DNA from: an archaeon
GTDB lineage: Archaea > Iainarchaeota > Iainarchaeia > Iainarchaeales > JAAZKV01
Assembly (NCBI GenBank): GCA_041659525.1
Contig: JBAZYC010000001.1
Location: forward strand, 205,731-269,730
DNA length: 64,000 bases
Reading direction: 5' to 3'
Below the pieces are notes generated by a model. The model made no database searches and was not told where the DNA came from. It saw only the letters and a list, made by a program, of their open reading frames with translations. How positions within the stretch are numbered: position 1 is the stretch's first letter; each line of letters opens with the position of its first letter. This document shows positions 1 to 20,253 of the stretch, one piece after another. A program made the translations under genes and the position numbers.

Positions 1-3000
1 TAAACTTTTTCAATTAATTCAACAAATCCATTTAGTGACATATACCATTTAGTTTTTCCATATTTGTTTGGCACAGAAGTCATACCTAAATTAGTAAACA
101 TCCCCTTGTATGCTGGGTTATCATCAATTTCAAATAACAAACTACTTTTGTCTTTAATTTCATTACTCTTTAATACATTACTCATTGACCAAAGCGCCTT
201 ATCAGTAGGTTTTTGTATAGGCATATTATAATCTGCAGTTAATGGAGGATTTACTAACCTATAAGGATCAGCAATTAATCCTTTATCCCCATTCAAATAA
301 TAATTCAAGTCCCCATCTTTGCACAAACTTATTTTTGGCCCAAGTGCTTCTCTATATAATTTATTCAAATCATTATTCTTCATGTTTAAATCTTCTGTAG
401 AAGTAATTTGAAGATTTAATTCATTAAATCTCTTTAGTAAGAATGCTTTCAACATTTCAGCGTTACAGAATTTAGTTGTACAATCAACTGGAGTATTCCA
501 ATTTAATTTTGTTGTTTCTATTAAGTTCATTCCATATGCTGTGGTGTCTGTTCCGCATGCTTTTGCTGCTGATCCTGCTCGGATTATTGATTTAACTACT
601 TCAGTATTAACATATTGAGTACATCCTTTGTTTTGTGCTAGGAATCTATCTGAAATACTGGTTGCTTGTGCAGTTAATTGTGCATCTGTAGAATCTGTTG
701 CTACAAGAGAGCCTGCCATGAATGCTTTCAAATCAGCTATGCACTTAACTTCGCTTCCTTCAGCTACTACCAAACATTGTTCTTCAACATTTCCAGTTAT
801 TGTGTAACCTGGTTTTGTTACAAGTATTGTTAGTGGCCATACTAGTTCTTGTGAATCAAATGTAGCTGCTCTTGATACTGTTCCTTTTACTGGAACACTT
901 ATTAGCAGGCAGTCTTTTGTCATTCCGCTTCTATCTACTTCAACCATTAAATTTGATCCTCTACTATTGTTAATCAAACTTCCAGAAGAAGTTTCGCTTA
1001 CAGTGATTTTTACTCCGCCAGTCTTTGATGGATCTACTGTTGATTGTAATTTGATTCCGTCAAGTAATCCGCAGTTCTTTGTAGCACTTCCTGCTTCTGT
1101 TTGAGTTTCTGCTTTTCTACTTTGGTAATAGTACATGTCATATTGTGGATAAGCTGTACTTGTTTGTGTTGGTGCAGGACCTATTCTTAGTGCTGCTGGT
1201 TCTGCTATGTAAACATATCTTGATCCAACGTAAGCTGAGTCAGGTACTGCTCCAGTTGAGCCAGCGTTTCGAGTTATCCAATAATTTCTAATATCAAGTG
1301 AACTTAGATTTTGACAATCTTTTGGTCTTGCAGTTGGATCTCCCCAGTTAAGTGCTGAGTCAATACTCTCTCCAATTCTCCACATATCTTCAATAGTAAT
1401 TGGGAATTCCATGCATTGTCCAGAACCGTATTGGTTAGTATAAGAGATATTTAAATTTCCGTAAACGTTTGTTCGTGCATCTGTCTCTGTCCCCCATTGT
1501 CTAATGCTTCCTAGTGTTTGGAATGGTCCTGCTTGTTGTGTTCTTGAATCAAATAATTTTCTTTGAGGAATGTATTGTGCACTTGGCATTACTTCGAAAT
1601 CAACTTGTTCAATTGATCCACTATCTCCTTGGATTATTTCTCTAGTTCTTGTTCTTGTTCCTGTTATTAGTGAGCAATTACTTGATGAAGCGCATCCACT
1701 TTGTTGAGTGTATTGTGAGTAAGAACTATATTGCGAATTAATTGGATAAGAGCTTGCATATTGTGATTCCATTCCTACTTGGAAGTAAGGTACACTTGAT
1801 TGCATTCCGTAAGTTGAGTTAGGAGCAGAGCATTCTATTGTTGCCATGTTATTTCCTCTTGAAAGCATTACTCCTGTATCATAACAGTAATTGTAAGCAG
1901 TGTATTTTTGTGGCTTATAGATAAATGAATTTAGATTAATCATTGTTACATTTGTTTTAATACAATCTTTGTCAGTGTCTCCAAGTTTTCTTACTAGTAC
2001 TGATACATCTGCAACTTTTTTCTTTACCTCTTGTGAGCCACTTGCTTTTGCATTTACTTTAATAGTGTATTTTCCTAAGACATATCCTGGGCTTACTATT
2101 ATTGTTGCATCAGAGTCTTTTGAAATTGTAACTTTTTCTTCTGAAACATTTACTCTTGAATCAGGATCTAAATCAATTTCTATATCCACTGTACAAGAAT
2201 TTTTAATTGTAAAAGAATTTTGTTGGAAACTATTGTTAGCAGTTGCTCCGCTTTGTCCAATACCACTATAACCTGCCCCATATCCCATGCTTCCGTATCC
2301 ACCCATACTCATTCCAGGCATCATCATGCTACCCATTCCGTATGGAGAAGATCTATTAGAGAATCCACCGTATAAAGATAATTGTGGAGAGTAATTACTT
2401 CCCATTAGTGCGCCGTAACCCATATTCCATGGAGCCATATCTAATATTAGTCCGCCAATTGGTTTGTCTATTTCAAGACACTTTGAAAGATTGCTCATTG
2501 TTGTGCTTGTTTTTATTTGTGCTTCTACTTTTTCAACTGACTTGTCTTCAAGAATATTTTTTCCAATAATTGAAATTGTAAAGTCTTGTGCTCCGCTTGC
2601 AACTGTTCCGCTTGGAATAAATGTAACAGTTAAATCTTCTTCTGCATTCTTTTCAAGATAGTCTCCTAACTTAGCGTAACTATCAGTTAGTGTTCCATTT
2701 GATAGTCCTTTTCCTGTTATTGAAATTGTTCCAAACTTAGCCGATTCACTTAACTTTGCTTCTAAATCATTTAGTGCAATATCAGTTCCTTCGGCAGTAC
2801 AAGTATTTGTTAGTGTAACTGTTTTTGTTGCGTTTCCATTCGCAGTAATGAATTCTATTGTTGCTGGATTAACTTTTAGGCACTTTCCACTATCAATCAT
2901 TCCGGGCATTGATAATCTTACAGCAATATTTATTTCGCTAGTGAATGATTGGTTTGTTCCGCTTATTTCTGAATTAATTATTAATTTTCCAGTTAGATCT

Positions 3001-6000
3001 TTTGGTTCTTTTAGTCTCATTGCGTTGCTATTTAGTTTCATTGATAAAATATAATTTCTGTCTTTTCCTTGTTCAATTACTGTTCCGTTTATTGTTCCAT
3101 TGAATTTAATGTCAACGTAGCTCTTTACGTCCCCATTTATCTCTGCGCTAGTTATTTTTACGTTCTTTGCAGTATCATTTTGAATTATTACTGATTCTTC
3201 TAGTCCAGTTATTTCTCCAATTTTAATTGTTTCATTTATTTGTGGAGGAGTAATTGTTAGTACTGAATCATCCACTATTTTTACAAATTCTTGCGAGTCA
3301 TATCCTTCTTTCTTTGCTGTAATTGTAATTTCGTCTCCGATTCTTGGTTCAGCTAGTTCGTACATTGCTAGTCCTTCTCCAGTTGTCTCAACTGTTGAAA
3401 GCAGATCTCTTCCTGATTTAATTGAAACCATTACTCCATCAAGTGAATCGTTTCCATCAGTTGCTTCAAAGAATAAAGTGTTGTTTATGTATGGAACAAT
3501 TACTTTTGGAACCATATCAAAAGTGAATTTCTTATTTGCTTTTACATTAATTGTAACTGTTTCATCTAACTCTGATTTTGAACTAGAATTAATTGCTAAT
3601 TTAATTCCACTTGTTCCTGATGCACTTGCAGTAAATAATATTTGTATTTGTATTGGAGCATCTATTCCTACAGTTCCAAGATTAATTGTTTTTTCAGCTT
3701 GTTCCGCTCCGTTAACACTAATTGCATTAATATCAATGCTCTTTCCTTGTACGCTTAGTACTGCTCCAACTAGTGCTTTTCCACTATAGTTTGTCAAGTC
3801 TGCAGTTAGTAAGTATTGTACTCCTTTCTTTGCTTCAATTGTTCCATTAACGTATTTTGTTTTTCCTGCTTCGCTTCCATCAAGTATTTGTAGAGTATAA
3901 GATTTGCAGAATGATCCAACGCATTGATTTGTTGCTCCTGCTAGTAGTACTCTTTTCTTTGCAGTCGAGTATAATTCGTTTGTGCCTGAAGAAGTTGATT
4001 GTGGATCTTTAATTATTGATCCTCCTTTTGCCCAAGCTCTATAGAATAAATTTAGTGGAGCATTTGGATTTGTTTCAGTAACAGTTATTTCTGCTTCTAC
4101 TTCGTAAGTTCCTTCTTGTGGATTCTTCCAAACAGAATTTGCCCACTTAGCATTCCCAGTTGTTAAATTCTTTGCATCTTTATCATATCCACTTGGCGGA
4201 GTGTAAGTAGTTCCCATTGTGATTCTTCCTGAAGAATCAATTTTGCTTAAGTATAATCCGTCTTCTTCCATTAGGTTAGTTACGTTTGCTGTTTCTTTTC
4301 CTGTTCTTAAGTGTAATCCTGCTTCAGTGAAAGATCCTTTTGGTACTTGTACTATTGTTCTTACTGTGTAAGTTCCTTGTGCTACACTTGCTGCGCCACT
4401 TTCTGTTTTTGCTGATACTTCTGCATTCCCACTATATACTCCAACTAGAGTAGCAATGATTTGTGCACTTGGTCTTACTAAAATTATTCCTTTTTCAGTT
4501 CGAGCATTTGCACTAGAATAAATTGCTGATGAAAAGTATTTTGAAAATCCTGTGCTTTCTACTACAAAGTAAACTTTCTTATCTGCTCTAAGAATAAATT
4601 CTGCTACCCCATCAGAGGAAGTTAATTTTGATTGTCCTTCTTGTGTTGAAGTGAAATAATTCATTGCTTTTACGCTTACTCCACTCAAAGGATTTTTTTC
4701 TGGATCAAGTACTTTGATTGCGATTGTTCCTTCTCCAATATCAAATACTACTTCTAAAACTTTTTGTGTTCTTGGAACAATTTGTATGCTTGTTGAGTTA
4801 ACACTTCCAAATCCTTCTTTTGAAACTGTTGCCATGTAAGATTTTGTTAATTCTAAATTGAAGAATTCTGCTTCTCCGCTCGCACCAGTAGTTTTTTCTC
4901 CAATTATTGGTTCAGCTGGATCAATTTTCTTTAGTACTACTCTTGCATTATCAATTGGGTTCTTTTTTCCATCCACTACTTTTACTAAAATAGAATTGCT
5001 TGTTGATGCATCTACTTTTGTAAGTAAAACTTCTACATTGTCTCCAGCTGTGGCAGCTTTTGTTTCTCCAATTACATATTCTGGGTGATCTACTGTTACA
5101 ATATATTCTCCATTTTCTGCTACATCAAAAGTTACTTGTCCCGTAGCTCCAGTTAATTTTGTTCGTACATCATTACTATTAGTTGCAAGTGTTAGTTTTA
5201 CTTCTGCTCCTAGAATTGGATTATTATTAGCTGCGTCTCTTACTATTACTTTTGTTGTTGCTCTAACTGCTTTTTGTAAAGTTACATCAAATTGAGTAGT
5301 AGTGTCTTTTAGAACATCTTTTACTTCCCCAATTTTGCTTCCATCATAACTAGAATAATTTCCATCTGGAGAAGTTATTAAAATATAATATTTTTTTACA
5401 GGAACATTATCAAATGAAACAATTGCTGTTCCTAGTGAAATATTTTCTATTGGTGCTGTTCCGTCCATTGGAACTAATTTTACTCTTAAACCAGCAGGAA
5501 CACTAGTTGAAGATTCAGCTGTAATTGTTACATTTACTTTTCCAAATGTTTGTTCTATTTCTTCTACTGTTACTGCTCCGTTCCCCGAGAATGATGCAGT
5601 TGCGTTAACTAAATTATAATTTTGTAAACTTAGCACTTCTATTTCTTTACAAGATGGACTTACTGTTGCTTGGAATACTCCATTAGTATAATTTGCTACT
5701 GATTCTTCGTTTGCTCCTTTGCATTTGTAAATTAAACTTCCGCTTCCACTAATTAGTGAGCCATTTGCTGTTTTTAAGTAAACTGCTTTTGAAATAGTTG
5801 CATCTTCTAAGCTTAAAGTAAATTCTTCTTCAACATTACCATTTAGAGTTATCTCTCTTGTTTGAGTTGCACTATTTTCTTTATCAATTTTTATTGAATA
5901 ACTTCCATTAGGGAGTAAGAATACTACTTTTCCATCAGTGCTTGTTGTTTGATTTCCTTTTTCAACATCATTTTGGAGTACTATTACTGTAGCTCCTTCG

Positions 6001-6254
6001 ATTGCACTTTGAGTATCATCAGTAACAATTACGCTTAGAGCAGAATTTCCGCTTGAAGTTATTACTACAAAGAGTAATAATAATATTAAAATAAGAATAA
6101 CTATTGCTAAAGGGAATGTTGGAATGTTTTTTTCTTCTAAAGCATCTACTATATTTCCCACTGCAGGAACTTTTTCACTAACGCCGTCCACTAAATTGTA
6201 CCATTTGTCTTCTAAAGAGTAGTAAACATCTTTTAGTGATTCAATTGCAGCCAT
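1..6254 (-). CDS. Giant membrane-anchored surface protein, paralog A (GP-A); 5' end complete, 3' end beyond window (>=2084 codons)
   Basis: Absent from the ORF track because no stop lies in the window. ATG at 6254 (plus-strand cat 6252-6254) sits 5 nt after GGTTGGG. Hand translation: MAAIESLKDVYYSLEDKWYNLVDGVSEKVPAVGNIVDALEEKNIPTFPLAIVILILILLLLFVVITSSGNSALSVIVTDDTQSAIEGATVIVLQNDVEKGNQTTS.. This shows an EDKWY motif, one TM helix, then a CarboxypepD_reg/PEGA-like beta-sandwich unit. I hand-translated nt 3-780 in the same frame and found it open (..QCLVVAEGSEVKCIADLKAFMAG..AKACGTDTTAYGMNLIETTKLNWNTPVDCTTKFCNAEMLKAFLLKRFNEL..NPAYKGMFTNLGMTSVPNKYGKTKWYMSLNGFVELIEKV). The track lists no minus-strand ORF fragments in 1..6254, consistent with one uninterrupted frame. 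Confidence 0.85.
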   Translation of the reverse strand, partial: MAAIESLKDVYYSLEDKWYNLVDGVSEKVPAVGNIVDALEEKNIPTFPLAIVILILILLLLFVVITSSGNSALSVIVTDDTQSAIEGATVIVLQNDVEKGNQTTSTDGKVVFLLPNGSYSIKIDKENSATQTREITLNGNVEEEFTLSLEDATISKAVYLKTANGSLISGSGSLIYKCKGANEESVANYTNGVFQATVSPSCKEIEVLSLQNYNLVNATASFSGNGAVTVEEIEQTFGKVNVTITAESSTSVPAGLRVKLVPMDGTAPIENISLGTAIVSFDNVPVKKYYILITSPDGNYSSYDGSKIGEVKDVLKDTTTQFDVTLQKAVRATTKVIVRDAANNNPILGAEVKLTLATNSNDVRTKLTGATGQVTFDVAENGEYIVTVDHPEYVIGETKAATAGDNVEVLLTKVDASTSNSILVKVVDGKKNPIDNARVVLKKIDPAEPIIGEKTTGASGEAEFFNLELTKSYMATVSKEGFGSVNSTSIQIVPRTQKVLEVVFDIGEGTIAIKVLDPEKNPLSGVSVKAMNYFTSTQEGQSKLTSSDGVAEFILRADKKVYFVVESTGFSKYFSSAIYSSANARTEKGIILVRPSAQIIATLVGVYSGNAEVSAKTESGAASVAQGTYTVRTIVQVPKGSFTEAGLHLRTGKETANVTNLMEEDGLYLSKIDSSGRITMGTTYTPPSGYDKDAKNLTTGNAKWANSVWKNPQEGTYEVEAEITVTETNPNAPLNLFYRAWAKGGSIIKDPQSTSSGTNELYSTAKKRVLLAGATNQCVGSFCKSYTLQILDGSEAGKTKYVNGTIEAKKGVQYLLTADLTNYSGKALVGAVLSVQGKSIDINAISVNGAEQAEKTINLGTVGIDAPIQIQILFTASASGTSGIKLAINSSSKSELDETVTINVKANKKFTFDMVPKVIVPYINNTLFFEATDGNDSLDGVMVSIKSGRDLLSTVETTGEGLAMYELAEPRIGDEITITAKKEGYDSQEFVKIVDDSVLTITPPQINETIKIGEITGLEESVIIQNDTAKNVKITSAEINGDVKSYVDIKFNGTINGTVIEQGKDRNYILSMKLNSNAMRLKEPKDLTGKLIINSEISGTNQSFTSEINIAVRLSMPGMIDSGKCLKVNPATIEFITANGNATKTVTLTNTCTAEGTDIALNDLEAKLSESAKFGTISITGKGLSNGTLTDSYAKLGDYLEKNAEEDLTVTFIPSGTVASGAQDFTISIIGKNILEDKSVEKVEAQIKTSTTMSNLSKCLEIDKPIGGLILDMAPWNMGYGALMGSNYSPQLSLYGGFSNRSSPYGMGSMMMPGMSMGGYGSMGYGAGYSGIGQSGATANNSFQQNSFTIKNSCTVDIEIDLDPDSRVNVSEEKVTISKDSDATIIVSPGYVLGKYTIKVNAKASGSQEVKKKVADVSVLVRKLGDTDKDCIKTNVTMINLNSFIYKPQKYTAYNYCYDTGVMLSRGNNMATIECSAPNSTYGMQSSVPYFQVGMESQYASSYPINSQYSSYSQYTQQSGCASSSNCSLITGTRTRTREIIQGDSGSIEQVDFEVMPSAQYIPQRKLFDSRTQQAGPFQTLGSIRQWGTETDARTNVYGNLNISYTNQYGSGQCMEFPITIEDMWRIGESIDSALNWGDPTARPKDCQNLSSLDIRNYWITRNAGSTGAVPDSAYVGSRYVYIAEPAALRIGPAPTQTSTAYPQYDMYYYQSRKAETQTEAGSATKNCGLLDGIKLQSTVDPSKTGGVKITVSETSSGSLINNSRGSNLMVEVDRSGMTKDCLLISVPVKGTVSRAATFDSQELVWPLTILVTKPGYTITGNVEEQCLVVAEGSEVKCIADLKAFMAGSLVATDSTDAQLTAQATSISDRFLAQNKGCTQYVNTEVVKSIIRAGSAAKACGTDTTAYGMNLIETTKLNWNTPVDCTTKFCNAEMLKAFLLKRFNELNLQITSTEDLNMKNNDLNKLYREALGPKISLCKDGDLNYYLNGDKGLIADPYRLVNPPLTADYNMPIQKPTDKALWSMSNVLKSNEIKDKSSLLFEIDDNPAYKGMFTNLGMTSVPNKYGKTKWYMSLNGFVELIEKV

Positions 6255-7968: not shown

Positions 7969-8029
7969 TTATTGCGGGCAATTAAACTTCATTTCAAACA
8001 ATTATTGTGGGCAATGTTATTGCGGGCAA
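7969..8029. promoter_or_regulatory. Three copies of near-palindromic TTATTG(C/T)GGGCAA, spanning the GP-B stop codon and the region upstream of the pilin-like gene
   Basis: Copies at 7969-7981, 8002-8014 (one C>T change) and 8017-8029. The core TTGCnnGCAA is an inverted repeat. Copy 3 encodes the last codons and stop of GP-B (..FCPQ*). Copies lie 70-130 nt upstream of the 7899 ATG on the same strand. Confidence 0.7.
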
Positions 8030-14000: not shown

Positions 14001-16959
14001 GTATTCTATAATATCCGTTCTTTCCTTTTCCGTCAGTTCCTTCTCCAACTACACTTTTCACTATTTTTCCATCTTTGTTAATTATTTTTACAAGTGCATC
14101 AGTAATTCCTTTTAATCCTTGGTCATTTACTTTTACAGTAAAGTTCTTTCCAGCCATTATTTGTGATTCTGATAATTCAACTAAAAGAGTTTTTTCTTGT
14201 ACTACTTTGAATGCTAAATTTTTCTCAACTGTTGCTACTCCTACTGCTTTTACACTTATTTGTGCATTTCCAATATTATTTGTTTTAAAGTAGAATCTTG
14301 TTTTTTCTTTTCCATTTTTAACTAGTGCTATTGCTGCACTTGCTTTTGATGATCCTGTCCCTTTAGCCTCGGCTTCTCTTACAAAATTAAAATTTCCTGT
14401 TTGGGTAGAAACGAAACTAATTGTATTATTATCAGTGCTTGCTGTTAATTGAACATAATCTGCTTCCATTGCAGTTACTTCTATTTCTAGTGCGTAAACT
14501 TTTTGAGTGAGTGCTTCAAATCCAACTTCTTTAATTAGTTGTTCACTTTCATCAAAGAAATTTGTTGTTAAGCAAATATTATCTTTACAATCAGGAAGGG
14601 CTTCGTATAAAGTTAAGTCCTCTGTATTTGTTGCCGCGTATACTCCAGCTTTTTTGTCGCTATAACTTTTTGTTAATAGTTCTACATCATCAGGTAATCT
14701 GTAGTAATCTTCTCCTACTACTGACCATGCTCTAAAGTGTAATTGTACTTTCCCTTCAGAGAAATCTTCCGCTCTTACTTTTACTTTTACAGTGTATGTT
14801 CCTTGCGGGTCAGTTATTACTCCTTCTATCCATTTACTTTTGTCTCCTTGCATTGTAGTATTTGATCTATCTACTACTTCGTTTCCTGGTACTGGAGAGG
14901 GAGTATAGGTATTTGATTGTGATATTTGTGCGCCTTGGAAACTTAAATCATAAACAGCGAATTTTTCTGATTCTGCGAATGGTACATTATCTGCTCCGCT
15001 TCTAAAGTGTACTCCCCCTTTTGTTGCAGCAAGTGGGTATGCAACACTAAATTTTGCCCAGTAAAATGCACCAGGGGTAAGTCCTTTTACTTCTGTTCCT
15101 TGTTCGTCTTCAAGTCCAATATATTCCATTACTGGAGTTAATGTACTTGCGTCTTTACTATACACTACTACTTCAACGTAATCTTTTCCCTTCACTGTAA
15201 CATTTTCTGTGAAAACATTTCCATCATCAAGAGTTACTTGTACTTCAATTATTTCTCTTTGTCCCGCGTCTAAGAATACTCTTGAATTACTAATTAAATC
15301 ATCAAATAAAAGTGTTCCATCTAGTCCCGATATTCTTGCTTTGCCAGTAACATCTTTTCCATATACATCAATAAATTTCATTTCAAGGACTTGTTCTTTT
15401 TTTGCCATAACTAAGTAAACTTTTTTATCCGCCTCTCCAGCTTTTACTTCTACTACGCTTCTTCCTCCCATTATTTCTGTTGTTCCTATTATTTCGTATG
15501 TTTTTGCGGGTGAAACTGTTGCTGCATAATATCCAGCGAATGTTGTTTGTCCTCCAGCTAATCCGTAGGGTAATTTGTTTCCATCTTTAATTTCAAAGAA
15601 TTCTAAATTCACTCCATTAATTGAAGTGCCTAATGAATCAGAAGTGTAAATATCAAGTCTTGCAGAATTAGTTGCACCTACGCTTTCCATTAATATTTTT
15701 ACCTCTTCAGTAGTGCTAACTAGTACTTGTTCTCTTTTTGGCAGGTAATTTTCTTTTGAAGCAGTAATGTAAATTGTTGCGTTTGAATCAATTCCAGTAA
15801 AATCTGTTCCTGCAATTGTTGAAGTTTGTTCAGCAAAAACTTCTCCATTTAATTTGTAAATTCTAACTATTGCATTATCAATTGCAAATCCTGATTTAGA
15901 ATCAAGTACGCTTACGTGTAATTTTTGTCCACCTTGTTTTAGTACAATATCAACTTTGTCTTCTTGTTTTCTAATTGTAATTCCTGCTCCAGAATCATCT
16001 GAATCATTTGTTAAATATCCTTGTTTTGTTACTACTATTCTTAGTGAAGTTCCTGCTTCTACCTCTCCAATTAATACTCCGTCAGCAGTGTAACCATTTA
16101 GTACTACTAAATTTTTTTGTTTATCATAAACATCTACTTTTGCGTCGCTAATTGTTTTTCCATCTATATCTTTTACATTAATTAATATATTTGCTTTTCC
16201 AACGTAGGATTGGTTTGATGGAATTAGTTCAATTGTTTTTACTTCTTTAGAACTAAATGTTACTTGTTGTTCGTAATTGTTATATCCTTCTGCACTTAAT
16301 TTCAAAAGCATTGTTACGCCTGTAGGAACTCCTGATTTTTTATAAAACCCGTTTGAATCTTCATCAAATTGTAAACTCAAATCTTTTGTAGAGGCAATTA
16401 CTGTTGCTCCATAAATAATTGTTTTTGTTTCATTATCAATTAATCTAATTTTTCCTTCAATTCCCTCGTAGGCTTTGCTAAATGAAACTCTTGGAGCGGT
16501 ATTATCTTTTCCAACTGTAAAATCAAGTGACTTTGGTTGGAAACCATCTTTAGAAGCAGTTAGTAATATTTTTTCTCCATTATAGAGTCCGCGATTTAGT
16601 GCTACTCTGTCCCCATCACTCTTTAATCCATCAAAAAGTACAGCTCCTTTTTCATCTGTTATTACTAGCTTTACGTTTTGCATTGCGCTTCCGTCAGCGT
16701 CTCTTAAAGAAAGAGTTAATTCATTTACATCCGGTCCTTTGTAAGTAAAAAGAAGTGAGAGTATTAGTAATAATAATACTATAATAGCGATTGTAACTAC
16801 AAAACTTGGTATTCCTTTGTTTTCGAAAAAATCAGAGTACTTGTAGACAGGAAGGCCTTTTCCGTCAAGGAAATCTAGTGTGTCAAAGTATTTGTCTTCT
16901 GCTTTTGTATAAATGCCGGCTAATTTTTCAGATATCAAAATACCCCACCAACGCCACAA
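8017..16959 (-). CDS. Giant membrane-anchored surface protein, paralog B (GP-B), ~2973-2980 aa
   Basis: Track ORF starts at TTG 16959. The TTG at 16938 is the more likely start, judged by alignment to GP-A/GP-C and a GGTGGGG-N4 SD-like motif (MISEKLAGIYTKAEDKYF..). The protein has an EDKYF motif plus a TM helix (IPSFVVTIAIIVLLLLILSLLF). A long array of beta-sandwich units follows (e.g. NVKLVITDEKGAVLFDG, ISDAKVDVYDKQKNLVVLNGYTADGV, IDNAIVRIYKLNGEVF). It then has a central block NCGEAYCDAVQAAKYLDKIIRQI shared with the paralogs. A ~770-aa C-terminal extension is unique to this copy. Confidence 0.9.
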   Translation of the reverse strand: MWRWWGILISEKLAGIYTKAEDKYFDTLDFLDGKGLPVYKYSDFFENKGIPSFVVTIAIIVLLLLILSLLFTYKGPDVNELTLSLRDADGSAMQNVKLVITDEKGAVLFDGLKSDGDRVALNRGLYNGEKILLTASKDGFQPKSLDFTVGKDNTAPRVSFSKAYEGIEGKIRLIDNETKTIIYGATVIASTKDLSLQFDEDSNGFYKKSGVPTGVTMLLKLSAEGYNNYEQQVTFSSKEVKTIELIPSNQSYVGKANILINVKDIDGKTISDAKVDVYDKQKNLVVLNGYTADGVLIGEVEAGTSLRIVVTKQGYLTNDSDDSGAGITIRKQEDKVDIVLKQGGQKLHVSVLDSKSGFAIDNAIVRIYKLNGEVFAEQTSTIAGTDFTGIDSNATIYITASKENYLPKREQVLVSTTEEVKILMESVGATNSARLDIYTSDSLGTSINGVNLEFFEIKDGNKLPYGLAGGQTTFAGYYAATVSPAKTYEIIGTTEIMGGRSVVEVKAGEADKKVYLVMAKKEQVLEMKFIDVYGKDVTGKARISGLDGTLLFDDLISNSRVFLDAGQREIIEVQVTLDDGNVFTENVTVKGKDYVEVVVYSKDASTLTPVMEYIGLEDEQGTEVKGLTPGAFYWAKFSVAYPLAATKGGVHFRSGADNVPFAESEKFAVYDLSFQGAQISQSNTYTPSPVPGNEVVDRSNTTMQGDKSKWIEGVITDPQGTYTVKVKVRAEDFSEGKVQLHFRAWSVVGEDYYRLPDDVELLTKSYSDKKAGVYAATNTEDLTLYEALPDCKDNICLTTNFFDESEQLIKEVGFEALTQKVYALEIEVTAMEADYVQLTASTDNNTISFVSTQTGNFNFVREAEAKGTGSSKASAAIALVKNGKEKTRFYFKTNNIGNAQISVKAVGVATVEKNLAFKVVQEKTLLVELSESQIMAGKNFTVKVNDQGLKGITDALVKIINKDGKIVKSVVGEGTDGKGKNGYYRIQNDLSVGLYTAEVSVPTYATNTVPLLITTQNILSFTDAIEVKMPLGTKSNMISEILSNNSEFTVQNIFVSTDGEELKDSTGVGENTLTSESGKFKITAIAPSALGKDQKQSVQITVSYIGESDDSADETSTITISGLVEGKFLTKVSATVHMTYNRKLDASCLVITPNKAIINLLGTQGSTDSDVIEVTNNCDQSINLTKRIRAVTKNSYIRIEADDIDLQQGETKNITITATNGIDRANSREQIFSYEVVYDSNYLKKTVSVNVKTINPALALTYPPQITLWLTQNSAAEKAIAAQPLFVTNTSAFPVDNIGFSVDNDYTSGANVKISVEPSGTTSLLPGQAIIPTKLVIATANNKISEPARAQIQITGKMGQLNNQSGQNDRYGYYNDYYDGTTPLNNYYPKTSNVNYYQNTNQTLGLIEVIVYYSGYNCLSANIVSDSLGYFDYLFPPEGGQLAKKISVTNKCAEPVRIVGATPAGQAMNQVNPIIGFPITSSSIMMSLPMVTIGPGEQINVPMTIITAIPNVNRKNYSVVVNGITEVSQTPIISKPFTINIFSGLDMASEHVKANNVKIKVCGGKVGEELTQEVTIPKISDNANCGEAYCDAVQAAKYLDKIIRQIRSKAQSQGYSAKNLEETYDCQNTGACTFEEIGMQPEYIDLYLQNDALTPYILQKQMNGEENEGASSTPFRETSDATGFIVVPGEADTTLLKMRAMAYDKTVFLDPVLQGCGYYKLFITGAFGAGVEGINSMTPVLSIKAVPQGGSNKLVTRECQSSITNIPNFNPIDTGLTTSSNYGTWLTTVESDTLLKDMAAKIAKARFGSDNRTLAGSGNKVKIVQGALVDSIAQICLTGGEKKIITVTVDSSIAKADALSKATFTNAIVDLVQDTLVGNFGDNCLIKTGEVYSCVKLNDSGNLGRRRLELTNSMLAMNSSTSGVESCVTGTIYSNVPETLTVQVEPINPSASGKYFNAIREIQVKANDSIVGPETKLTTIGQSGITVNANSTTESIIANQNSQADRQAVNDAIPTKNPIGASTSTKTNVAADDSKVEKLSFADVVPALSFADTVPAVPTAEIPNTTNVNSVPSTVSTRNLRTDYYTVSYMGGNLVEEKINYPIELKFNQNSKDYKYYRNIKICALASDPTKDTTASSTDGTPVYVLANGVQFTLGIVALNQSQPESSAKQLITINTGTLHPKDLLQLVLSKSVETGKGYYFTPMWKDGPQTIDLTAYETALVRQGNFDAYSIAGNEQTEKDLSAISAARQGAVKSYAIGCGITSAVCNTALTGGIWGAALSVLTDCGLPLMTVLQSDFAETKGGRVALSGADKFVNGVLDIFESVLGLFGKKSDWNLDWFVPTKIESQSLSGYSLTKSGLAAGEGAFNNAVLNGFRASTGRGFANGINSSNIKTIASDVAEPYVKEFEKILEESFDPKKVSQFDIAYMSTGYKDELVTELTKEMQKNNLIKPATKPTVLQSAKSRLLTPPQYNSVETNIELSIKNNKLIQDPASYVLTKPAGSKLTNFEEMLKARGRLPKNADDLTKLMIPGSPLEKIIKAKLKLDLTLFNTTLKSSFAGYADNLGSLVQPLDHAELRPLIEDLVSQTVPGIKGQDKIDLIDKIHNKIPVKSYMGSQVGKKGLVAGTGYRVDSIINEIKLAAKPEIEVALKSSSSLTTAIDDIAKEISPKVKAGGDLGLADMTKTNNLRSKINSMWSKSGAAALGKGIFCGLVSNAVGMKAYKDEIGDSITKINGDMTKMKESVFVTKGKLYMLRLDSEHNLVVSEIQNVLDLKRPVNGKLPEQKYSKEVGGLLPEQRLLGAYPIVTSRKVAVELMKSTQTDYVDDYASGDPVNVIKTNPYKRMFGEDSKFPEVLFRYTSTSGLDCKTNPNLITINGTTPNAAEPIAIAIATTKLGQREYSPDSVVQEAEGKSTWLKGKLTTALVAISKNSENKVDLTVAKAVFPNTTDQKLLEQFVRDSTLWIAIYSKSRQEVGDFCPQ

Positions 16960-17147
16960 AGCTAACTTATCTATTCACTATAAGTAATTACATTTACTTA
17001 CTTAATAAACCTTTTTACTTAGCCCAAACTCTAAGCAATCTCACTCAATTGGGCATGAGAAGGTACAAATTTAACTAAATAAACTTAAAATTAACTTAAA
17101 ATGAAACTAAAGCAGGCAAAAACCCCAATAAAAATTCAAAAAATATT

Positions 17148-17816
17148 TTATTTTCGTGATTTTTGCTCTTTTCCATTAGCCCAATAGAACCAAAGAACGT
17201 AAAATCCTACGATGTAAACAAACAAAATTACTCTAAATAGCAAATCATGAGTGAATTCTACTATTTGACCTTCTTGTCCAAGGATAATGTTTACTGTTAT
17301 TACTATTCTTAGTAAATTAAAAATTACACCAAGTATTATTGCAACTAAAATTCCTTGTAATTTCTTTTTCCAACTTACTCCAAAGCTTGCAAGTATCGCA
17401 CTTGCTAAAACAATTATTTCTAAAATCCCTGTGCAAAGCCAAGAAATAAAAATTACTTTTTCAATAGTAGTATTTGTTTGAAAGAAATAACAATTACTTG
17501 GAATTTCTGCCCCAATCCAATTTGCTTCAGTGCAACCAATAAAACTTCCTTCGCTTGTTGGAATTCCTTGTAAGGAAATAATTGATTGAACACTTTTTCC
17601 AACAGCGGCTTTGTAAAATTCACTTGGAATTAGCAAAACTAATCCAGTAATTAGGAGGTAAAAGAACACAAATCCTAACACAAAAAAAACTAATTGTTTT
17701 TTATTATCTGAAACAATTTTTTCTTCTTGAGCTTGAAAATATTTTTTAACTGAATCAAAAATATTGTCATTATTTTTTTTAGAATTTTTTAAAACTGCTT
17801 TTTTCTTAATGCTCAT
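17148..17816 (-). CDS. Exosortase/archaeosortase-family-like polytopic membrane protein (putative transpeptidase), ~222 aa
   Basis: ATG at 17816 immediately follows GGTG (the track start at 17819 is GTG). Several TM helices are apparent. The ordered motifs ..VIFISWLC-TGILEI.., ..GVIFNLLR-IVITV.. and ..EFTH-DLLFRVILF.. match the Cys/Arg/His catalytic signature and spacing of the EpsH (exosortase/archaeosortase) family. The call rests on motif recognition only. Confidence 0.5.
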   Translation of the reverse strand: MSIKKKAVLKNSKKNNDNIFDSVKKYFQAQEEKIVSDNKKQLVFFVLGFVFFYLLITGLVLLIPSEFYKAAVGKSVQSIISLQGIPTSEGSFIGCTEANWIGAEIPSNCYFFQTNTTIEKVIFISWLCTGILEIIVLASAILASFGVSWKKKLQGILVAIILGVIFNLLRIVITVNIILGQEGQIVEFTHDLLFRVILFVYIVGFYVLWFYWANGKEQKSRK

Positions 17817-17949
17817 CACCAGAATAGAGGTTTATTGATATTAAATAACTTTCTTTTAGATTTGTCAAAAGAAATAACTTTTTCTTTCGTATAATTTGAC
17901 AGCCCTCAAGTTTTTATATCTCTTTCACTCTTTACAATTACGTGAAAGC

Positions 17950-20253
17950 ATGAAGATTGGCGGATTCAAAGTAGGTGACTTTGTCATCAAAGATATTGGT
18001 GGAAAGCGTGCGCTGATTTTTGATTGTAAGAACTGTGTTTATTCTGCAAGTATTGCAGAGGACCATCACTGTAGATTCCACGCAATAAAAATTTTGCAAG
18101 AAGTGGAAGCAGATAGAGTTGTTTTAGCTGAAGTTTACGAACGTGTTTACGAAGAGAGTCAAACAAAAATGTTAATGGAGGTTGCAAACCTTTCCCAAAA
18201 ACTTTCAGTGGAAGGGGTTTGGAGTTATAACCATTTAGGAAAACCAATTAAAGAATGTGAAGCTTTTTTCCCTGAGCGCCACCAAATAATTGTCAGAGTA
18301 GCAAATGATTTGATTAGTTATGATCCAATTTTAGCTTATCTTTCTCTTTTGCAAGAATTAAGAAAAGAAGAAGAAAAAGTTAGACAGAGTGATCAATTAT
18401 ATGTTTCTTGTGCAGAACCTTATGTTGCTACTCTTGTTGAACTAAAAAATAGATTTGATTCTTTACTTTTAGTAATTAGAGCTAAAAGAATTTTAACAGA
18501 GCTTCAACAAACTCCTGACACTACTCAAATTTACAAATCGCTTTTTGAAGCAGATATTAAACCTAGTTTTATTGGTTCAAAACTTTCTTTCGCAGGAATG
18601 GAGGATTTTGAATTACTTGATGAGTACACTGTTCGTGAATCAAGTGTACAAATTTTAGCGGATCCAAAAAAAGTAGAGAAACTTTATTTCATTAATCCTC
18701 CTGAATATTCTTTAGCGCCTGATCAATATTTTGTTTTAAGTAAAACTAGAGAAATTGTTGCAACATACAAACCGGGTAGAACTTCTCTTTCAACAGTTGC
18801 TACTTCAAGAAAATATTTTGAAAGATTATACGAATCAACAATTAAAGAGGTTGCAGCTTTTAGTAGAGTTCCTCTTTCCCCTGAAGAAATGTCTTCTCTT
18901 GCAAAAGTTGTTGCAAGATATACTGTTGGTTATGGAATTTTAGAAGTAATTTTGAATGATAGAAAAATTACTGATGTTTATATTGATTCTCCAATTGGTT
19001 CAAGACCAATTTATATTGTTCACTCGGATTATGGTCAGTGTCAAACAAATGTTACTTTCACTGAGAACGAAGCAAATTCACTTATTTCAAAATTAAGAGC
19101 AATGTCTTCTCGTCCTTTTGATGAAGCTCACCCAGTACTTGATTTTGATTTACCTGATCTTGAGACTCGTGTCGCAGTAATTGGCCCTCCGCTCTCTCCA
19201 TCAAGTTATGGATTTGCTTTTAGATTACACAAGATGACTCCTTGGACGCTTGAGCAATTCATTGATGTTAATTATCTAAATCCACTCGCAGCAGGAATGT
19301 TAAGTTTCTTTATTGATATGCAATCAACTACATTAATTGCTGGTTCAAGAGGATCTGGGAAAACTTCTTTACTCCAAGCAGTAATGCTTGAGATTCCACA
19401 GAACTCAAGAATAATTGTTCAAGAAGATACTCTTGAATTACCAATCCCTTATATGAAAGAAATTGGTTTTAATATTCAAAGATTAAAAACTCGTTCTCCA
19501 ATTAGTGTTTCTAAAACTGAAACAGAAGTTGATCCTGCAGAAGCACTTAGAACTGCATTACGTTTAGGTGACTCTGCACTAATTTTAGGAGAAGTTCGTT
19601 CTAAGGAAGCTAAAGTACTTTACGAAGCAATGCGTGTTGGTGCTGCTGGTAATGTTGTACTAGGAACTATTCACGCTGATAGTGCTTACTCTGTTTGGGA
19701 CAGAGTAGTAAATGATTTAGGAGTACCAACTACCTCTTTCAAAGCAACTGATTTAGTTATTGTTGCTCGACCAATTAGATTTAAGGGAAGTTTAAAGAGA
19801 GTTAGAAGAATTGTTGAAATTACTGAAATTAAAAAACACTGGACTGAAGATCCTTCTACTCAAGGAGGATTACTTGATTTAATGAAATATGATGCTGGCA
19901 AAGATACTCTTGAATTAATTGAAGATAATTTAAAAGAAAGTGAATTATTCCAAAAGATTCAGAAAACTAGCGGACTTACTGTTGATGATATTTGGGCTGA
20001 GATAAGACTACGTGGAAATACTAAATTGTTTTTAGTTGAACAAAAAAATGCGCTTTCTCTTCCATCTTTACTTGAAGCAGAGAACACTAGTCTTGCTACT
20101 AACAAATTATTTTTAATGAAAGAAACTATGCTTGAAGAGGAAGGTAAAACTAATTACGAACAACTCTTAGGCCAATGGAAGAACTGGGTAACCACTGATT
20201 TGATTCCAAGACTGCAAAAAGCAAAACCTGTGAAAAAAGATAGTGATGATTAA
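17950..20253 (+). CDS. Type II/IV secretion-system ATPase (PilB/FlaI/VirB11 superfamily), 767 aa
   Basis: Track ORF begins at TTG 17896; the first ATG is at 17950 (MKIGGFKVGDF..). Motifs: Walker A GSRGSGKTS, Asp box IIVQEDTLEL, Walker B DSALILGEVR, His box GTIHADSA. It has a ~330-aa N-terminal region and a ~130-aa C-terminal extension, making it longer than typical FlaI. Confidence 0.85.
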   Translation: MKIGGFKVGDFVIKDIGGKRALIFDCKNCVYSASIAEDHHCRFHAIKILQEVEADRVVLAEVYERVYEESQTKMLMEVANLSQKLSVEGVWSYNHLGKPIKECEAFFPERHQIIVRVANDLISYDPILAYLSLLQELRKEEEKVRQSDQLYVSCAEPYVATLVELKNRFDSLLLVIRAKRILTELQQTPDTTQIYKSLFEADIKPSFIGSKLSFAGMEDFELLDEYTVRESSVQILADPKKVEKLYFINPPEYSLAPDQYFVLSKTREIVATYKPGRTSLSTVATSRKYFERLYESTIKEVAAFSRVPLSPEEMSSLAKVVARYTVGYGILEVILNDRKITDVYIDSPIGSRPIYIVHSDYGQCQTNVTFTENEANSLISKLRAMSSRPFDEAHPVLDFDLPDLETRVAVIGPPLSPSSYGFAFRLHKMTPWTLEQFIDVNYLNPLAAGMLSFFIDMQSTTLIAGSRGSGKTSLLQAVMLEIPQNSRIIVQEDTLELPIPYMKEIGFNIQRLKTRSPISVSKTETEVDPAEALRTALRLGDSALILGEVRSKEAKVLYEAMRVGAAGNVVLGTIHADSAYSVWDRVVNDLGVPTTSFKATDLVIVARPIRFKGSLKRVRRIVEITEIKKHWTEDPSTQGGLLDLMKYDAGKDTLELIEDNLKESELFQKIQKTSGLTVDDIWAEIRLRGNTKLFLVEQKNALSLPSLLEAENTSLATNKLFLMKETMLEEEGKTNYEQLLGQWKNWVTTDLIPRLQKAKPVKKDSDD

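What the first reader, a model, noticed from the sequence alone, without database searches (positions are those of the whole stretch)
1..20253. Locus 1: giant / pilin-like / giant triad contiguous with an archaeosortase-like protein and an orphan PilB/FlaI-class ATPase
On the minus strand the order is GP-B (16959->8017), the class-III-signal pilin-like protein (7899->6445), then GP-A (6254->off window). Immediately upstream lies the exosortase/archaeosortase-like gene (17816->17148). Divergent from it is a 767-aa secretion ATPase (17950..20253). The clustering of surface substrates, a pilin-like subunit, a putative sorting transpeptidase and an assembly ATPase suggests one functional module for building or anchoring a surface structure. 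The usual partners of such ATPases are not in the window, namely a PilC/FlaJ/TadC platform protein and a prepilin peptidase. The ATPase also carries unusually long N- and C-terminal extensions.
Basis: inference. Interest (0 to 1): 0.75.

Follow-up and report, generated by a model that had tools for sequence, protein, structure and literature searches.

The report
Giant-protein operon beside pilus motor
In this small uncultured archaeon (Iainarchaeota, DPANN), a conserved operon for giant surface proteins, a large pilin-like protein and a small sorting enzyme lies back to back with the motor ATPase of a type IV pilus system. The rest of that pilus system has moved elsewhere in this genome, so the ATPase only looks like an orphan.

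Summary
All five ORFs are present as described.

- **Conservation:** the order small archaeosortase-family gene → GP-B → class-III-signal pilin-like → GP-A recurs in about 30 related loci. Off-window it continues with a 4-TM protein and a third giant. Among one-per-species loci, the archaeosortase-like gene lies divergently upstream of the ATPase in 29/32, and a leader-bearing giant in 24/29.
- **ATPase:** it is not a true orphan. In 28/36 species it is followed directly by a ~780-aa TadC/FlaJ-like platform and 6-7 small pilins. Only the window's own clade has this operon split. A platform orthologue (P0148) is reported on a contig of the same length (985,290 bp).
- **Extensions:** the long ATPase ends are family-wide, at 60-91% identity over the full length.
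- **Archaeosortase-like protein:** it passes TIGR04178 and keeps the invariant Cys/Asn/Arg/His. No giant, nor the pilin-like protein, has a C-terminal sorting signal. Better substrate candidates are Sec-type proteins ending [ILVA]-P-[DE]…TM…basic, such as the window's 590-aa protein.
- **Giants:** they share an exclusive ~45-aa N-terminal leader plus one TM helix, which is the topology of a prepilin.

Verdict: a new variant of known kinds. Function is inferred from synteny only.

The parts
1..6254 (-). GP-A: a giant surface protein, truncated by the window edge (2084 aa visible). It has a conserved ~45-aa N-terminal leader (..LEDKWY..EEKN-IPTF), a single TM helix (residues 47-65), then four CarboxypepD_reg (Ig-like) domain hits and a Cys-rich ectodomain.
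   Evidence: Orthologues of 2342-2519 aa always follow the pilin-like gene, and those inspected have no C-terminal TM helix.
6445..7899 (-). Modular pilin-like protein (484 aa). It has a class-III-type signal (..HERG|FNMFSAIVATILIM..), a predicted 70-residue N-terminal helix, and a Cys-rich globular head with no detectable structural relative.
   Evidence: 80 homologues. Alignment A1 shows 8 invariant Cys. The AF2 model has pLDDT 89.2 and pTM 0.80. Foldseek against PDB found nothing at E<=0.001. No Pfam or NCBIfam family matched.
8017..16959 (-). GP-B: a giant surface protein (2980 aa; the probable true start is TTG at 16938). Its leader is ..EDKYF..FENKG-IPSF, followed by one strong TM helix (residues 53-71). 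It has no C-terminal TM helix.
   Evidence: Orthologues lie directly downstream of the Xrt-like gene in about 50 loci.
17148..17816 (-). Small exosortase/archaeosortase-family membrane protein (222 aa, about 4 TM helices). The invariant C128, N167, R170 and H190 (plus F194 and R195) are predicted to lie in the outer half of the membrane or on its outer face. It is the first gene of the giant-protein operon.
   Evidence: TIGR04178 scores 42.1 bits (cut-off 23), and no named subfamily reaches its cut-off. Invariant residues come from 41 and 71 sequences. The family has about 200 clusters among 1.84 billion representatives.
17817..17949 (.). A 133-bp AT-rich divergent intergenic region between the Xrt-like gene and the ATPase gene, with TATA-like stretches. 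It is presumed to hold a promoter for each direction.
   Evidence: Sequence read. Promoter function is inferred and was not tested.
17950..20253 (+). FlaI/GspE2-class type IV pilus ATPase (767 aa). The core spans roughly residues 296-686 and includes the Walker A motif GSRGSGKTS. A family-wide N-terminal extension carries C26-x2-C29..C41-x2-H44, and there is a helical C-terminal extension.
   Evidence: PF00437 scores 70 bits. Sequence matches to PDB 2oap and 4ii7. Foldseek E=8e-26 to afGspE and FlaI. AF2 model. Orthologues are 60-91% identical over the full length.
51424..53196 (-). Candidate substrate of the Xrt-like enzyme; it lies outside the finding's range. It is a 590-aa Cys-rich protein with a Sec-type signal peptide, ending ..MNIPDSSP-LMVIVLLITVLFILT-QKQKK.
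   Evidence: It has the same [ILVA]-P-[DE]/TM/basic architecture as seven other proteins in related loci. No known CTERM model matches it.
24320..28963 (-). Second, weaker candidate substrate. It is a 1547-aa secreted protein with beta-helix and GLUG repeats, ending ..GPTAFFGLDTTSS-TM-..KKKKNI.
   Evidence: A similar GPAGFFAMGD..TM..basic tail occurs in the 879-aa protein of L004.

Best explanation
The region is one half of a conserved two-operon cell-surface supercluster of Iainarchaeota.

**Minus-strand operon.** The order is archaeosortase-family enzyme -> GP-B -> large modular pilin -> GP-A. Off the window it continues with a ~165-aa 4-TM protein and a third giant.

**Plus-strand operon.** This is the lineage's type IV pilus-like operon. 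It starts with the 767-aa FlaI/GspE2-class ATPase. In most relatives it continues with a ~780-aa TadC/FlaJ-like platform and 6-7 small class-III pilins. In the window's clade a rearrangement moved the platform and pilins elsewhere in the genome, leaving the ATPase behind.

**Proposed working (inferred)**
1. The ATPase and the distant platform pull prepilin-type proteins out of the membrane after signal cleavage and polymerise them into a filament.
2. The 484-aa protein enters that filament as a minor or tip subunit and carries a novel Cys-rich head.
3. The giants are exported with prepilin-like topology: a cytoplasmic ~45-aa leader, one TM helix and a huge Ig-like-rich ectodomain. They form the adhesive or coat part of the same surface structure and remain held by that N-terminal helix.
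4. The small archaeosortase has its catalytic residues in the outer half of the membrane. It cleaves C-terminal [ILVA]-P-[DE]/TM/basic signals of other Sec-exported surface proteins, for example the window's 590-aa protein, and anchors them covalently.

**Shown:** the gene content, family assignments, conserved residues, conserved gene order and the operon split. **Inferred:** every functional step.
For: **Gene order in species-representative loci**
- An Xrt-like gene lies upstream and divergent from the ATPase in 29/32 loci.
- A leader-bearing giant lies there in 24/29 loci.
- The platform lies within 600 nt downstream in 28/36 loci.
- The exceptions lacking a platform nearby include the window's own clade, where aCPSF1 and the proteasome gene follow instead.

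**Giant operon**
- Loci seeded on the pilin-like protein show GP-B, the pilin-like gene and GP-A in the same order wherever the flanks allow.
- The Xrt-like gene is seen directly upstream of GP-B in 8 of them (6 distinct).
- This holds in the genome where the operon lies about 37 kb from the ATPase (L087 against L004).
- In the most distant locus, L090 (labelled Micrarchaeota), giant genes flank the pilin-like gene on both sides, and an IS element sits where the Xrt-like gene is expected.

**Pilus operon**
- The platform has a weak T2SSF match, and some members carry PF00482.
- Small pilins with ..AQA|..F.L-type signals follow it.
- In a close relative, the platform and pilins sit without an ATPase on the same contig as a giant triad (L006 and L058).
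- P0148 is listed on a 985,290-bp contig, the same length as the window's.

**Individual proteins**
- ATPase fold and family.
- Pilin-like N-terminus and model.
- Xrt-like signature and invariant residues.
- The leader occurs only on giants: 68 distinct ORFs, all at least 2177 aa or cut by a locus end.
- C-terminal tripartite signals were found in 10 distinct Sec-type proteins of these loci, eight of them with [ILVA]-P-[DE].
- Three full-length members of a ~1550-aa family have the NLPSLP signal, and partial homologues of that family follow the pilin operon in 8 loci.
Against: - No experiment or expression data exist. Conserved synteny in small, slowly rearranging genomes can outlive any functional coupling.
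- The two operons can separate: 37 kb apart in one genome, and the pilus operon itself is split in the window's clade. Co-regulation is therefore not obligatory.
- The pilin-like head has no structural relative, and no Pfam pilin family matches it.
- Its signal ([KR]G|F) differs from that of the small pilins (AQA|..).
- No prepilin peptidase was seen in any locus.
- The proposed Xrt substrates rest on a short motif in 8-10 proteins, and no curated CTERM model matches them.
- The Xrt-like gene travels with the giants rather than with those candidate substrates (L087), which this model does not explain.
Confidence: 0.55

Rival explanations
1. This is a cell-envelope gene island without direct mechanistic coupling. 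The type IV pilus system, the giant membrane-anchored (S-layer-like or adhesin) proteins and the archaeosortase would be independent surface systems. They would sit together only through inheritance of an ancestral arrangement in small genomes.
For: - The pilus operon was split in the window's clade without loss of either half.
- In the L004/L087 genome the giant operon lies about 37 kb from the ATPase.
- In L020 GP-B sits on the other side of the pilus genes.
- Housekeeping genes (aCPSF1, proteasome) now abut the ATPase.
Against: - The divergent adjacency persists down to about 60% ATPase identity, while the genes further out differ between loci.
- A class-III-signal protein is embedded between the giants, which ties that operon to a prepilin-processing and assembly system.
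Confidence: 0.25
2. The giants are themselves giant pilin-like subunits. Their exclusive ~45-aa leader, ending [KR]-[GNS]|[IV]-P-[ST]-F and followed by a TM helix, would be a long variant of a class III signal. It would be cut at the cytoplasmic face, and the N-terminal helix would then be extracted by the ATPase/platform machine so that the giants decorate or cap a fibre.
For: - The topology is that of a prepilin: cytoplasmic leader, one TM helix, ectodomain.
- In all but one of the roughly 30 GP-B orthologues inspected, [KR]-G sits directly before the hydrophobic stretch.
- The leader occurs on no other protein.
- The giants are co-operonic with a pilin-like protein and adjacent to the pilus ATPase.
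Against: - In GP-A the -1 residue is often Asn or Ser.
- In the third giant family the [KR]-G is absent (D-x-[VI]-[IV]-P-S-F).
- Pro at +2 and a 45-50-aa leader are not typical of known archaeal class III signals (from memory of the FlaFind pattern; not tested here).
- No pilin of about 3000 aa is known.
Confidence: 0.12
3. The archaeosortase-like enzyme acts non-canonically on the giants it is co-transcribed with. It could shed or re-anchor their ectodomains, or cut at a conserved Cys/Gly-rich hydrophobic segment about 70% along GP-B, in the way ArtA cuts an internal tripartite signal.
For: - The Xrt-like gene is directly upstream of GP-B in nearly every locus and stays with the giants when they are separated from the pilus operon.
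- ArtA can process a tripartite signal that is not C-terminal (PMC9263693).
- GP-B orthologues share a weakly hydrophobic Cys/Gly-rich segment near residues 2030-2200.
Against: - No conserved motif lies on the outer side of the giants' N-terminal TM helix.
- The internal segments are only marginally hydrophobic (1.6-1.8 on the Kyte-Doolittle scale), are not detected in every orthologue, and show no evident basic cluster.
- The conserved IPSF motif is on the cytoplasmic side, whereas the enzyme's catalytic residues are predicted to face outward (topology read from the sequence).
Confidence: 0.08

Closest known systems
Archaeal type IV pilus-like systems (FlaI/GspE2-class ATPase, TadC/FlaJ platform and class III-signal pilins), including the divergent DPANN loci noted by Makarova et al. 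(PMC4858521, PMC6393860)
   Same: - The ATPase fold and family match (PF00437; Foldseek E=8e-26 to afGspE 2oap and FlaI 4ii7).
- In relatives a polytopic T2SSF-like platform and a run of small pilins with class III signals follow the ATPase directly.
- Large non-pilin proteins encoded in archaeal pilus loci have been suggested to be tip adhesins (PMC4858521).
   Different: - The ATPase has a roughly 200-aa extra N-terminal part with a CxxC..CxxH motif and a helical C-terminal extension.
- The platform is about 780 aa and barely matches T2SSF.
- The locus is paired with an operon of three leader-bearing giants of 2300-3100 aa, a ~480-aa modular pilin and an archaeosortase-family gene.
- In the window's clade the ATPase is separated from the platform and pilins.
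Archaeosortase/exosortase systems (ArtA with PGF-CTERM; small forms such as ArtD, XrtH and XrtX; NCBIfam pacearchaeosortase)
   Same: - It passes the family signature TIGR04178.
- It has the invariant Cys, Arg and His (plus a second Arg), corresponding to the residues needed in ArtA (Cys173, Arg214, Arg253; PMC9263693).
- It is a small polytopic membrane protein.
- Candidate targets have the tripartite motif/TM/basic architecture.
   Different: - It reaches no curated subfamily cut-off; the best is XrtX at 37 bits against 170.
- The candidate signal ([ILVA]-P-[DE]) matches no curated CTERM model.
- The gene heads an operon of giant proteins that lack any C-terminal signal, and it lies next to a pilus ATPase.
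Minor-pilin plus large-adhesin modules of bacterial type IV pili (PilY1 with minor pilins) and modular pilins (from general knowledge; PilY analogy cited in PMC4858521)
   Same: - A pilin with a large extra module, and very large non-pilin surface proteins, are encoded together beside the pilus machinery.
   Different: - There is no sequence or fold similarity.
- The giants here are two to three times larger than PilY1 and carry their own N-terminal TM helix and leader.
Giant membrane-anchored 'SPEARE' proteins of Nanohaloarchaeota, which are linked to VirB4/TraG-like ATPases (PMC10266531)
   Same: - They occur in a DPANN lineage.
- They are multi-thousand-residue surface proteins rich in Ig-like domains, encoded next to a secretion-type ATPase.
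- They are proposed to mediate cell-cell contact.
   Different: - The ATPase class differs: type IV pilus here, type IV secretion there.
- The anchor differs: an N-terminal leader plus TM helix here, a Sec signal with a C-terminal membrane/ATPase part there.
- No homology was detected.

Membership tests
Exosortase/archaeosortase superfamily | Match to the family signature model (TIGR04178 exo_archaeo) above its curated cut-off | tested here: met
   42.1 bits against a cut-off of 23, E=8e-11. All 71 family representatives also match. Pfam Exosortase_EpsH scores only 14.3 bits for the window protein, but 33.8 bits for the L005 orthologue.
Exosortase/archaeosortase superfamily | Conserved catalytic Cys and Arg residues (ArtA Cys173, Arg214, Arg253) and the conserved His | tested here: met
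   C128, N167, R170 and H190 are invariant, and F194 and R195 nearly invariant, in 71 diverse members and in 41 orthologues. The residue roles are taken from PMC9263693.
Exosortase/archaeosortase superfamily | Cognate substrates with a tripartite C-terminal signal (motif, TM helix, basic cluster) in the same genomes | tested here: inconclusive
   The giants and the pilin-like protein lack one. Ten distinct Sec-type proteins in these loci have one, eight with [ILVA]-P-[DE], including the window's 590-aa protein. No genome-wide co-occurrence test was possible.
Named archaeosortase/exosortase subfamilies (ArtA-H, XrtX, XrtH, XrtM, XrtG, pacearchaeosortase) | Score above the subfamily's curated cut-off | tested here: not met
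   The best scores are XrtX 37.3 (cut-off 170), XrtH 26.2 (86), XrtM 26 (125), XrtG 21.8 (102.75) and ArtD 21.6 (125). Pacearchaeosortase is not among the window protein's matches at E<=0.1.
Type II/IV secretion-family ATPase, archaeal FlaI/GspE2 class | T2SSE domain with Walker A motif, and the FlaI/GspE fold | tested here: met
   PF00437 scores 70 bits against a cut-off of 24.9. The Walker A motif GSRGSGKTS is present. phmmer gives 2oap 1.7e-31 and 4ii7 9e-26. Foldseek gives E=8e-26 and TM-score (target) 0.66-0.72.
Archaellum motor ATPase FlaI (equivalog NF058587) | Score above the equivalog cut-off, with archaellin and FlaH/G/F genes nearby | tested here: not met
   155.9 bits against a cut-off of 550. 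No archaellin-family or archaellum accessory match was found among the ORFs scanned, in the window or downstream of the L005 ATPase.
Type IV pilus system (complete locus) | A TadC/FlaJ/PilC-type platform protein partnered with the ATPase | tested here: inconclusive
   It is absent from the window. In relatives a ~780-aa polytopic protein follows the ATPase (28/36 loci). Its T2SSF match is weak (21.2 bits against a cut-off of 25.2), and some members carry PF00482 or are named T2SS F family. The orthologue P0148 is listed on a contig of the same length as the window's, but that contig could not be fetched.
Type IV pilin / class III signal protein (the 484-aa protein) | A short basic leader ending [KR]-G/A, directly followed by a ~20-residue hydrophobic helix that begins a long alpha-1 helix | tested here: met
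   The sequence reads ..HERG|FNMFSAIVATILIMTGVVL. The orthologues read MNKKG|FTLFTALVSFVLIL and MNQRA|FNLFTALVAFVLIM. F18, V22, A23 and L26 are nearly invariant. AF2 predicts a helix over residues 15-84.
Type IV pilin / class III signal protein (the 484-aa protein) | Match to a curated pilin or archaellin family, or a pilin-like head fold | tested here: not met
   No Pfam or NCBIfam family matched. Foldseek against PDB found nothing at E<=0.001.
Type IV pilin / class III signal protein | Cleavage by a prepilin peptidase (PibD/FlaK/EppA) and incorporation into a filament | not testable with these tools
   No peptidase gene was seen in the window or the loci. The rest of the genome could not be retrieved.

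The most novel reading that the evidence does not exclude
The giants would be a new class of giant pilins. Their exclusive ~45-aa leader, ending [KR]-[GNS]|[IV]-P-[ST]-F and followed by one TM helix, would be a long class-III-like signal. After leader removal, the FlaI-class ATPase and the ~780-aa platform would lift proteins of 2300-3100 aa out of the membrane by their N-terminal helix. The result would be a fibre or cap decorated with megadalton ectodomains. The co-operonic archaeosortase-family enzyme would finish or anchor the assembly. This would be a surface organelle type not described in any domain of life.
Probability: 0.12. Interest if true: 0.85.

Novelty: new variant of a known kind. 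Interest (0 to 1): 0.6.

Why it matters
Iainarchaeota and other DPANN archaea are uncultured, have tiny genomes, and are thought to depend on contact with other cells. How they build their surface is largely unknown.

This work defines a class-wide, strictly ordered operon of three giant proteins, one modular pilin and a new archaeosortase subfamily, tied to the lineage's only visible pilus motor. That gives concrete candidates for the attachment apparatus.

It also gives three testable biochemical questions:
- What removes or uses the giant-specific leader?
- What does a 4-TM mini-archaeosortase cut?
- Is [ILVA]-P-[DE]-CTERM a new sorting signal?

Finally, it corrects an annotation trap. An ATPase that looks orphaned in a 64-kb view is the displaced head of a split operon.

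Tried and rejected
- **Retrieving the window's own contig.** I tried to see the rest of GP-A, the platform and a prepilin peptidase. Look-ups of the pilin-like protein, P0001 and P0148 all returned 'not on record'. I used close relatives instead.
- **Metagenome scan seeded on Xrt alignments.** I used the pilin-like alignment instead.
- **Structure and sequence searches that found nothing.** Foldseek of the pilin-like model against PDB gave no significant match. PDB sequence searches with GP-B, GP-A and the Xrt profile gave nothing.
- **Family scans of other proteins.** Pfam and NCBIfam scans of the candidate substrates, the 4-TM protein and the platform found no informative family and no known CTERM model.
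- **Archaellum reading.** Rejected: the FlaI equivalog score is far below its cut-off, and no archaellins are present.
- **Giants as canonical archaeosortase substrates.** Rejected: none has a C-terminal TM helix.
- **The 1547-aa protein as a homologue of the ~1550-aa NLPSLP family.** Rejected by BLAST.
- **Literature.** Searches for DPANN or Diapherotrites with exosortase, archaeosortase, giant proteins or pili found no description of this arrangement.
- **Promoter scan.** The sigma-70 promoter/terminator scan was not run, because the organism is archaeal.

Full report
**1. Observation**

The window is archaeal and about 33% GC. aCPSF1 (20388-22301) and a proteasome beta subunit (22473-23294) lie beside the finding. 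The closest relatives of its proteins are labelled Diapherotrites, Iainarchaeum or Forterrea, that is phylum Iainarchaeota within DPANN.

- GP-A (6254 -> 1, minus strand) runs off the window with 2084 aa visible.
- The pilin-like protein (7899 -> 6445) is 484 aa and identical to public protein P0241.
- GP-B (16959 -> 8017) is 2980 aa. Orthologue N-termini suggest that the true start is the TTG at 16938.
- The 222-aa membrane protein runs 17816 -> 17148.
- The divergent ATPase (17950-20253) is 767 aa, and its start matches the orthologue consensus.

No platform-like or prepilin-peptidase-like ORF was found in the window.

**2. Family assignments**

*The 222-aa protein.* It passes the exosortase/archaeosortase signature model TIGR04178 at 42.1 bits against a cut-off of 23. 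It reaches no named subfamily cut-off: XrtX scores 37 against 170, and XrtH, XrtM, XrtG and ArtD are all well below theirs.
- An exhaustive HMMER search of 1.84 billion representatives finds only about 200 related clusters, nearly all under 300 aa. All 71 representatives that I aligned also match TIGR04178.
- C128, N167, R170 and H190 are invariant, and F194 and R195 nearly so.
- These correspond to the Cys and Arg residues needed for ArtA activity (PMC9263693).
- From the sequence and the positive-inside rule, I read four TM helices with both ends in the cytoplasm. C128, H190 and R195 fall at or near the outer face, and N167 and R170 within TM3 (inference).

*The ATPase.* It has a T2SSE domain (70 bits). 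Residues ~296-686 align to archaeal GspE (2oap), CpaF and FlaI (4ii7). Its AF2 model matches afGspE and FlaI at E=8e-26. It is far below the archaellum FlaI equivalog cut-off, at 156 bits against 550.

*The ATPase extensions.* They are real, but they are the family norm.
- 120 listed homologues are mostly about 760 aa and 62-91% identical, most of them over 97-100% of the query. Some are longer because of inteins, and a few are fragments.
- The N-terminal part has a near-invariant C26-x2-C29..C41-x2-H44 motif and is modelled with pLDDT of about 80-90. The C-terminal helices (about residues 660-758) are modelled similarly well.

*The 484-aa protein.* No Pfam or NCBIfam family matches it.
- Its N-terminus (..HERG|FNMFSAIVATILIM) is conserved as [KR]-[GA]|F-[NT]-[LM]-F-[ST]-A-[IL]-V in orthologues.
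- The AF2 model (pLDDT 89, pTM 0.80) has a 70-residue N-terminal helix followed by alpha/beta domains.
- Eight Cys are invariant.
- Foldseek finds no relative of the head in the PDB.
- I therefore call it a modular pilin-like protein, on the basis of its signal and helix only.

*The giants.* They hit only CarboxypepD_reg and other Ig-like domain families and have no PDB relatives by sequence.

**3. The ATPase is not an orphan**

In relatives with 79%, 67% and 65% identical ATPases (L003, L004, L005), the ATPase is followed directly by several genes.
- First comes a 775-810-aa polytopic protein. It has a weak T2SSF match (21.2 bits), and some family members carry PF00482 or are named T2SS F family.
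- Then come six or seven small proteins with class III signals such as ..GQA|FSVFRLLISAIMG.

Among GTDB species-representative loci, the platform lies within 600 nt downstream in 28 of 36. The exceptions without a platform in the flank include the window's own clade (ATPase at least 83% identical: L007, L009, L011, L038, and also L001, L002 and L008). There, aCPSF1 and the proteasome gene follow instead, exactly as in the window.

In a close relative, the platform and pilins sit without any ATPase on the same contig as a GP-B / pilin-like / GP-A triad (L006 and L058). A platform orthologue (P0148, 797 aa) is listed on a 985,290-bp contig. That is the same length as the contig carrying the window's ATPase and pilin-like protein.

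I infer that the operon was split in this clade and that the partners are encoded elsewhere in the same genome. That contig could not be fetched.

**4. The neighbourhood is strongly conserved**

Species-representative loci:
- An Xrt-like gene lies upstream of the ATPase on the opposite strand in 29 of 32 loci with at least 3 kb of flank.
- A leader-bearing giant lies there in 24 of 29 loci with at least 5 kb. Two more have it nearby: L020 on the other side of the pilus genes, and L014 about 11 kb away (L059).
- The arrangement was not seen in three more distant loci labelled Micrarchaeota, whose ATPases are 48-52% identical (L041, L054, L056).

Thirty metagenome loci seeded on the pilin-like protein, plus three look-ups, show a constant order wherever the flanks allow: Xrt -> GP-B -> pilin-like -> GP-A -> a ~165-aa 4-TM protein -> a third giant.

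The window therefore starts inside a longer operon. About 260-430 aa of GP-A, the 4-TM gene and a third giant should lie to its left.

In the genome of L004, where nothing of this lies upstream of the ATPase, the whole operon, including the Xrt-like gene, sits about 37 kb away (L087). The Xrt-like gene is thus linked to the giants more tightly than to the ATPase.

**5. What the giants and the sortase can and cannot be**

- Every giant has one strong TM helix near the N-terminus. None of those seen to their C-termini has a TM helix there, and internal hydrophobic segments are marginal.
- The ~45-aa N-terminal leader ([ED]-D-K-[WY]-[YF]..[LF]D....[KR]-[GNS]-[IV]-P-[STA]-F) occurs on 68 distinct ORFs in my loci. 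Every one is either at least 2177 aa long or cut by a locus end.
- This is prepilin topology. In all but one of the roughly 30 GP-B orthologues inspected, [KR]-G sits just before the helix. GP-A often has Asn or Ser there, and the third giant family has neither.
- The canonical reading, in which the archaeosortase anchors the giants, is not supported.

I looked for proteins with a Sec-type N-terminus and a C-terminal TM helix plus basic tail, using a filter over 522 distinct complete ORFs and a separate motif scan. Together they found ten.
- Eight carry [ILVA]-P-[DE] just before the helix: NLPSLPEDPL, NLPSLPEQPL, NLPSLPIQD, NIPDNN, NIPDSSP, APEIH, APDWT and VPETN.
- Two carry G-P-x-x-F-F-x-x-D: the window's 1547-aa protein and the 879-aa protein of L004.
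- The NLPSLP proteins belong to a ~1550-aa family. Partial homologues of that family follow the pilin operon in L004, L005, L006, L013, L021, L025, L026 and L044.
- One [ILVA]-P-[DE] protein is the window's 590-aa protein (51424-53196).
- No curated CTERM model matches any of them.

They are plausible, but unproven, substrates.

**6. Best explanation and rivals**

I propose a two-operon surface supercluster. A type IV pilus-like machine, comprising the ATPase here and the platform and pilins displaced elsewhere, assembles a filament. That filament includes the 484-aa modular pilin. The giants form the adhesive or coat part of the same structure and are held by their N-terminal helix. The mini-archaeosortase processes Sec-exported proteins that end in P-[DE]. 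My confidence is 0.55 for the module as a whole, and lower for each individual step.

Rivals:
- A cell-envelope island kept together by inheritance (0.25). It is supported by the observed splits.
- Giants as true giant pilins (0.12).
- Non-canonical processing of the giants by the Xrt-like enzyme (0.08).

The rivals are not wholly exclusive of one another.

**7. Comparison and novelty**

Divergent type IV pilus loci with unrecognisable pilins are already noted for DPANN (PMC6393860). Large proteins in archaeal pilus loci have been proposed as tip adhesins (PMC4858521). Giant membrane-anchored proteins next to secretion ATPases are known in Nanohaloarchaeota, with a different ATPase class (PMC10266531). 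Small archaeosortases of DPANN exist as curated models, for example pacearchaeosortase.

I found no description of this arrangement: an archaeosortase-headed operon of leader-bearing giants and a modular pilin, paired with the pilus operon. That search covers open-access text only.

I rate it a new variant of known kinds. It is interesting mainly for the giant-specific leader, the new sortase subfamily with its possible new sorting signal, and the clear example of a split operon that mimics an orphan ATPase.

Noticed in passing
window 46039-59826 (-): This is a second giant cluster. It contains p2177 (53293-59826), which carries the same N-terminal leader, then the 590-aa Cys-rich Sec protein with an NIPDSSP/TM/KQKK tail, then p1750 (46039-51291). 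p1750 and p2177 share a ~430-aa C-terminal domain at 23% identity. No orthologues of these appeared in the related loci.
   Followed up: partly
window 24320-28963 (-): A 1547-aa secreted protein with parallel beta-helix and GLUG repeats ends GPTAFFGLD..TM..KKKKNI. A similar GPAGFFAMGD tail occurs in L004 1083-3722. This may be a second, PGF-like sorting-signal flavour.
   Followed up: partly
L003, L004, L005, L006, L020, L023, L028 and others: A ~1550-aa secreted protein family, preceded by a ~180-aa membrane protein, follows the pilin operon in many Iainarchaeota. The three full-length copies end NLPSLP..TM..basic.
   Followed up: partly
L058 18940-19443; L059 18633-19130; beyond the left edge of the window: A conserved ~165-aa 4-TM protein and a third leader-bearing giant (about 2700-2860 aa) follow GP-A in relatives. 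They should therefore lie just outside the window. The 4-TM protein matches no Pfam or NCBIfam family.
   Followed up: partly
ATPase orthologues P0013, P0036, P0085; loci L040, L042, L043, L047, L048, L051, L054, L056: Many orthologues of the ATPase are about 1270-1815 aa. The listed proteins carry intein/homing-endonuclease domains (PF14528, PF14890); the long ORFs in the loci were not scanned for them. The window copy has none.
   Followed up: no
window 17950-18540 (ATPase residues 1-~200): The family-wide N-terminal extension has a near-invariant C26-x2-C29..C41-x2-H44 motif, which looks like a zinc-binding site, followed by a helical bundle modelled at pLDDT 80-90.
   Followed up: partly
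window 61340-61426 (-): This tRNA is 87 nt long. ARAGORN calls it tRNA-Asp with the anticodon 'atc', which is unusual. It is probably an intron-containing archaeal tRNA that was mis-parsed. Rfam confirms a tRNA at 59 bits.
   Followed up: no
window 29035-30716 (+): This is a tandem pair of clearly paralogous genes (289 and 271 aa) with near-identical N-termini (MKNKISITLDENVVEGIK.. and MKTKISITLDENVIEEIK..).
   Followed up: no
window ~33000-45000: This stretch holds many small ORFs. None of the four scanned has a family match, and the rest were not scanned. It also contains an ORF at 41836-43080 that looks like a tyrosine integrase by eye. It may be an integrated element.
   Followed up: no
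L090 31-1202: In a more distant MAG labelled Micrarchaeota, an IS element (rve transposase) sits where the Xrt-like gene is expected, upstream of the first giant. Giant genes of 2784 and 3046 aa still flank the pilin-like gene on both sides.
   Followed up: no
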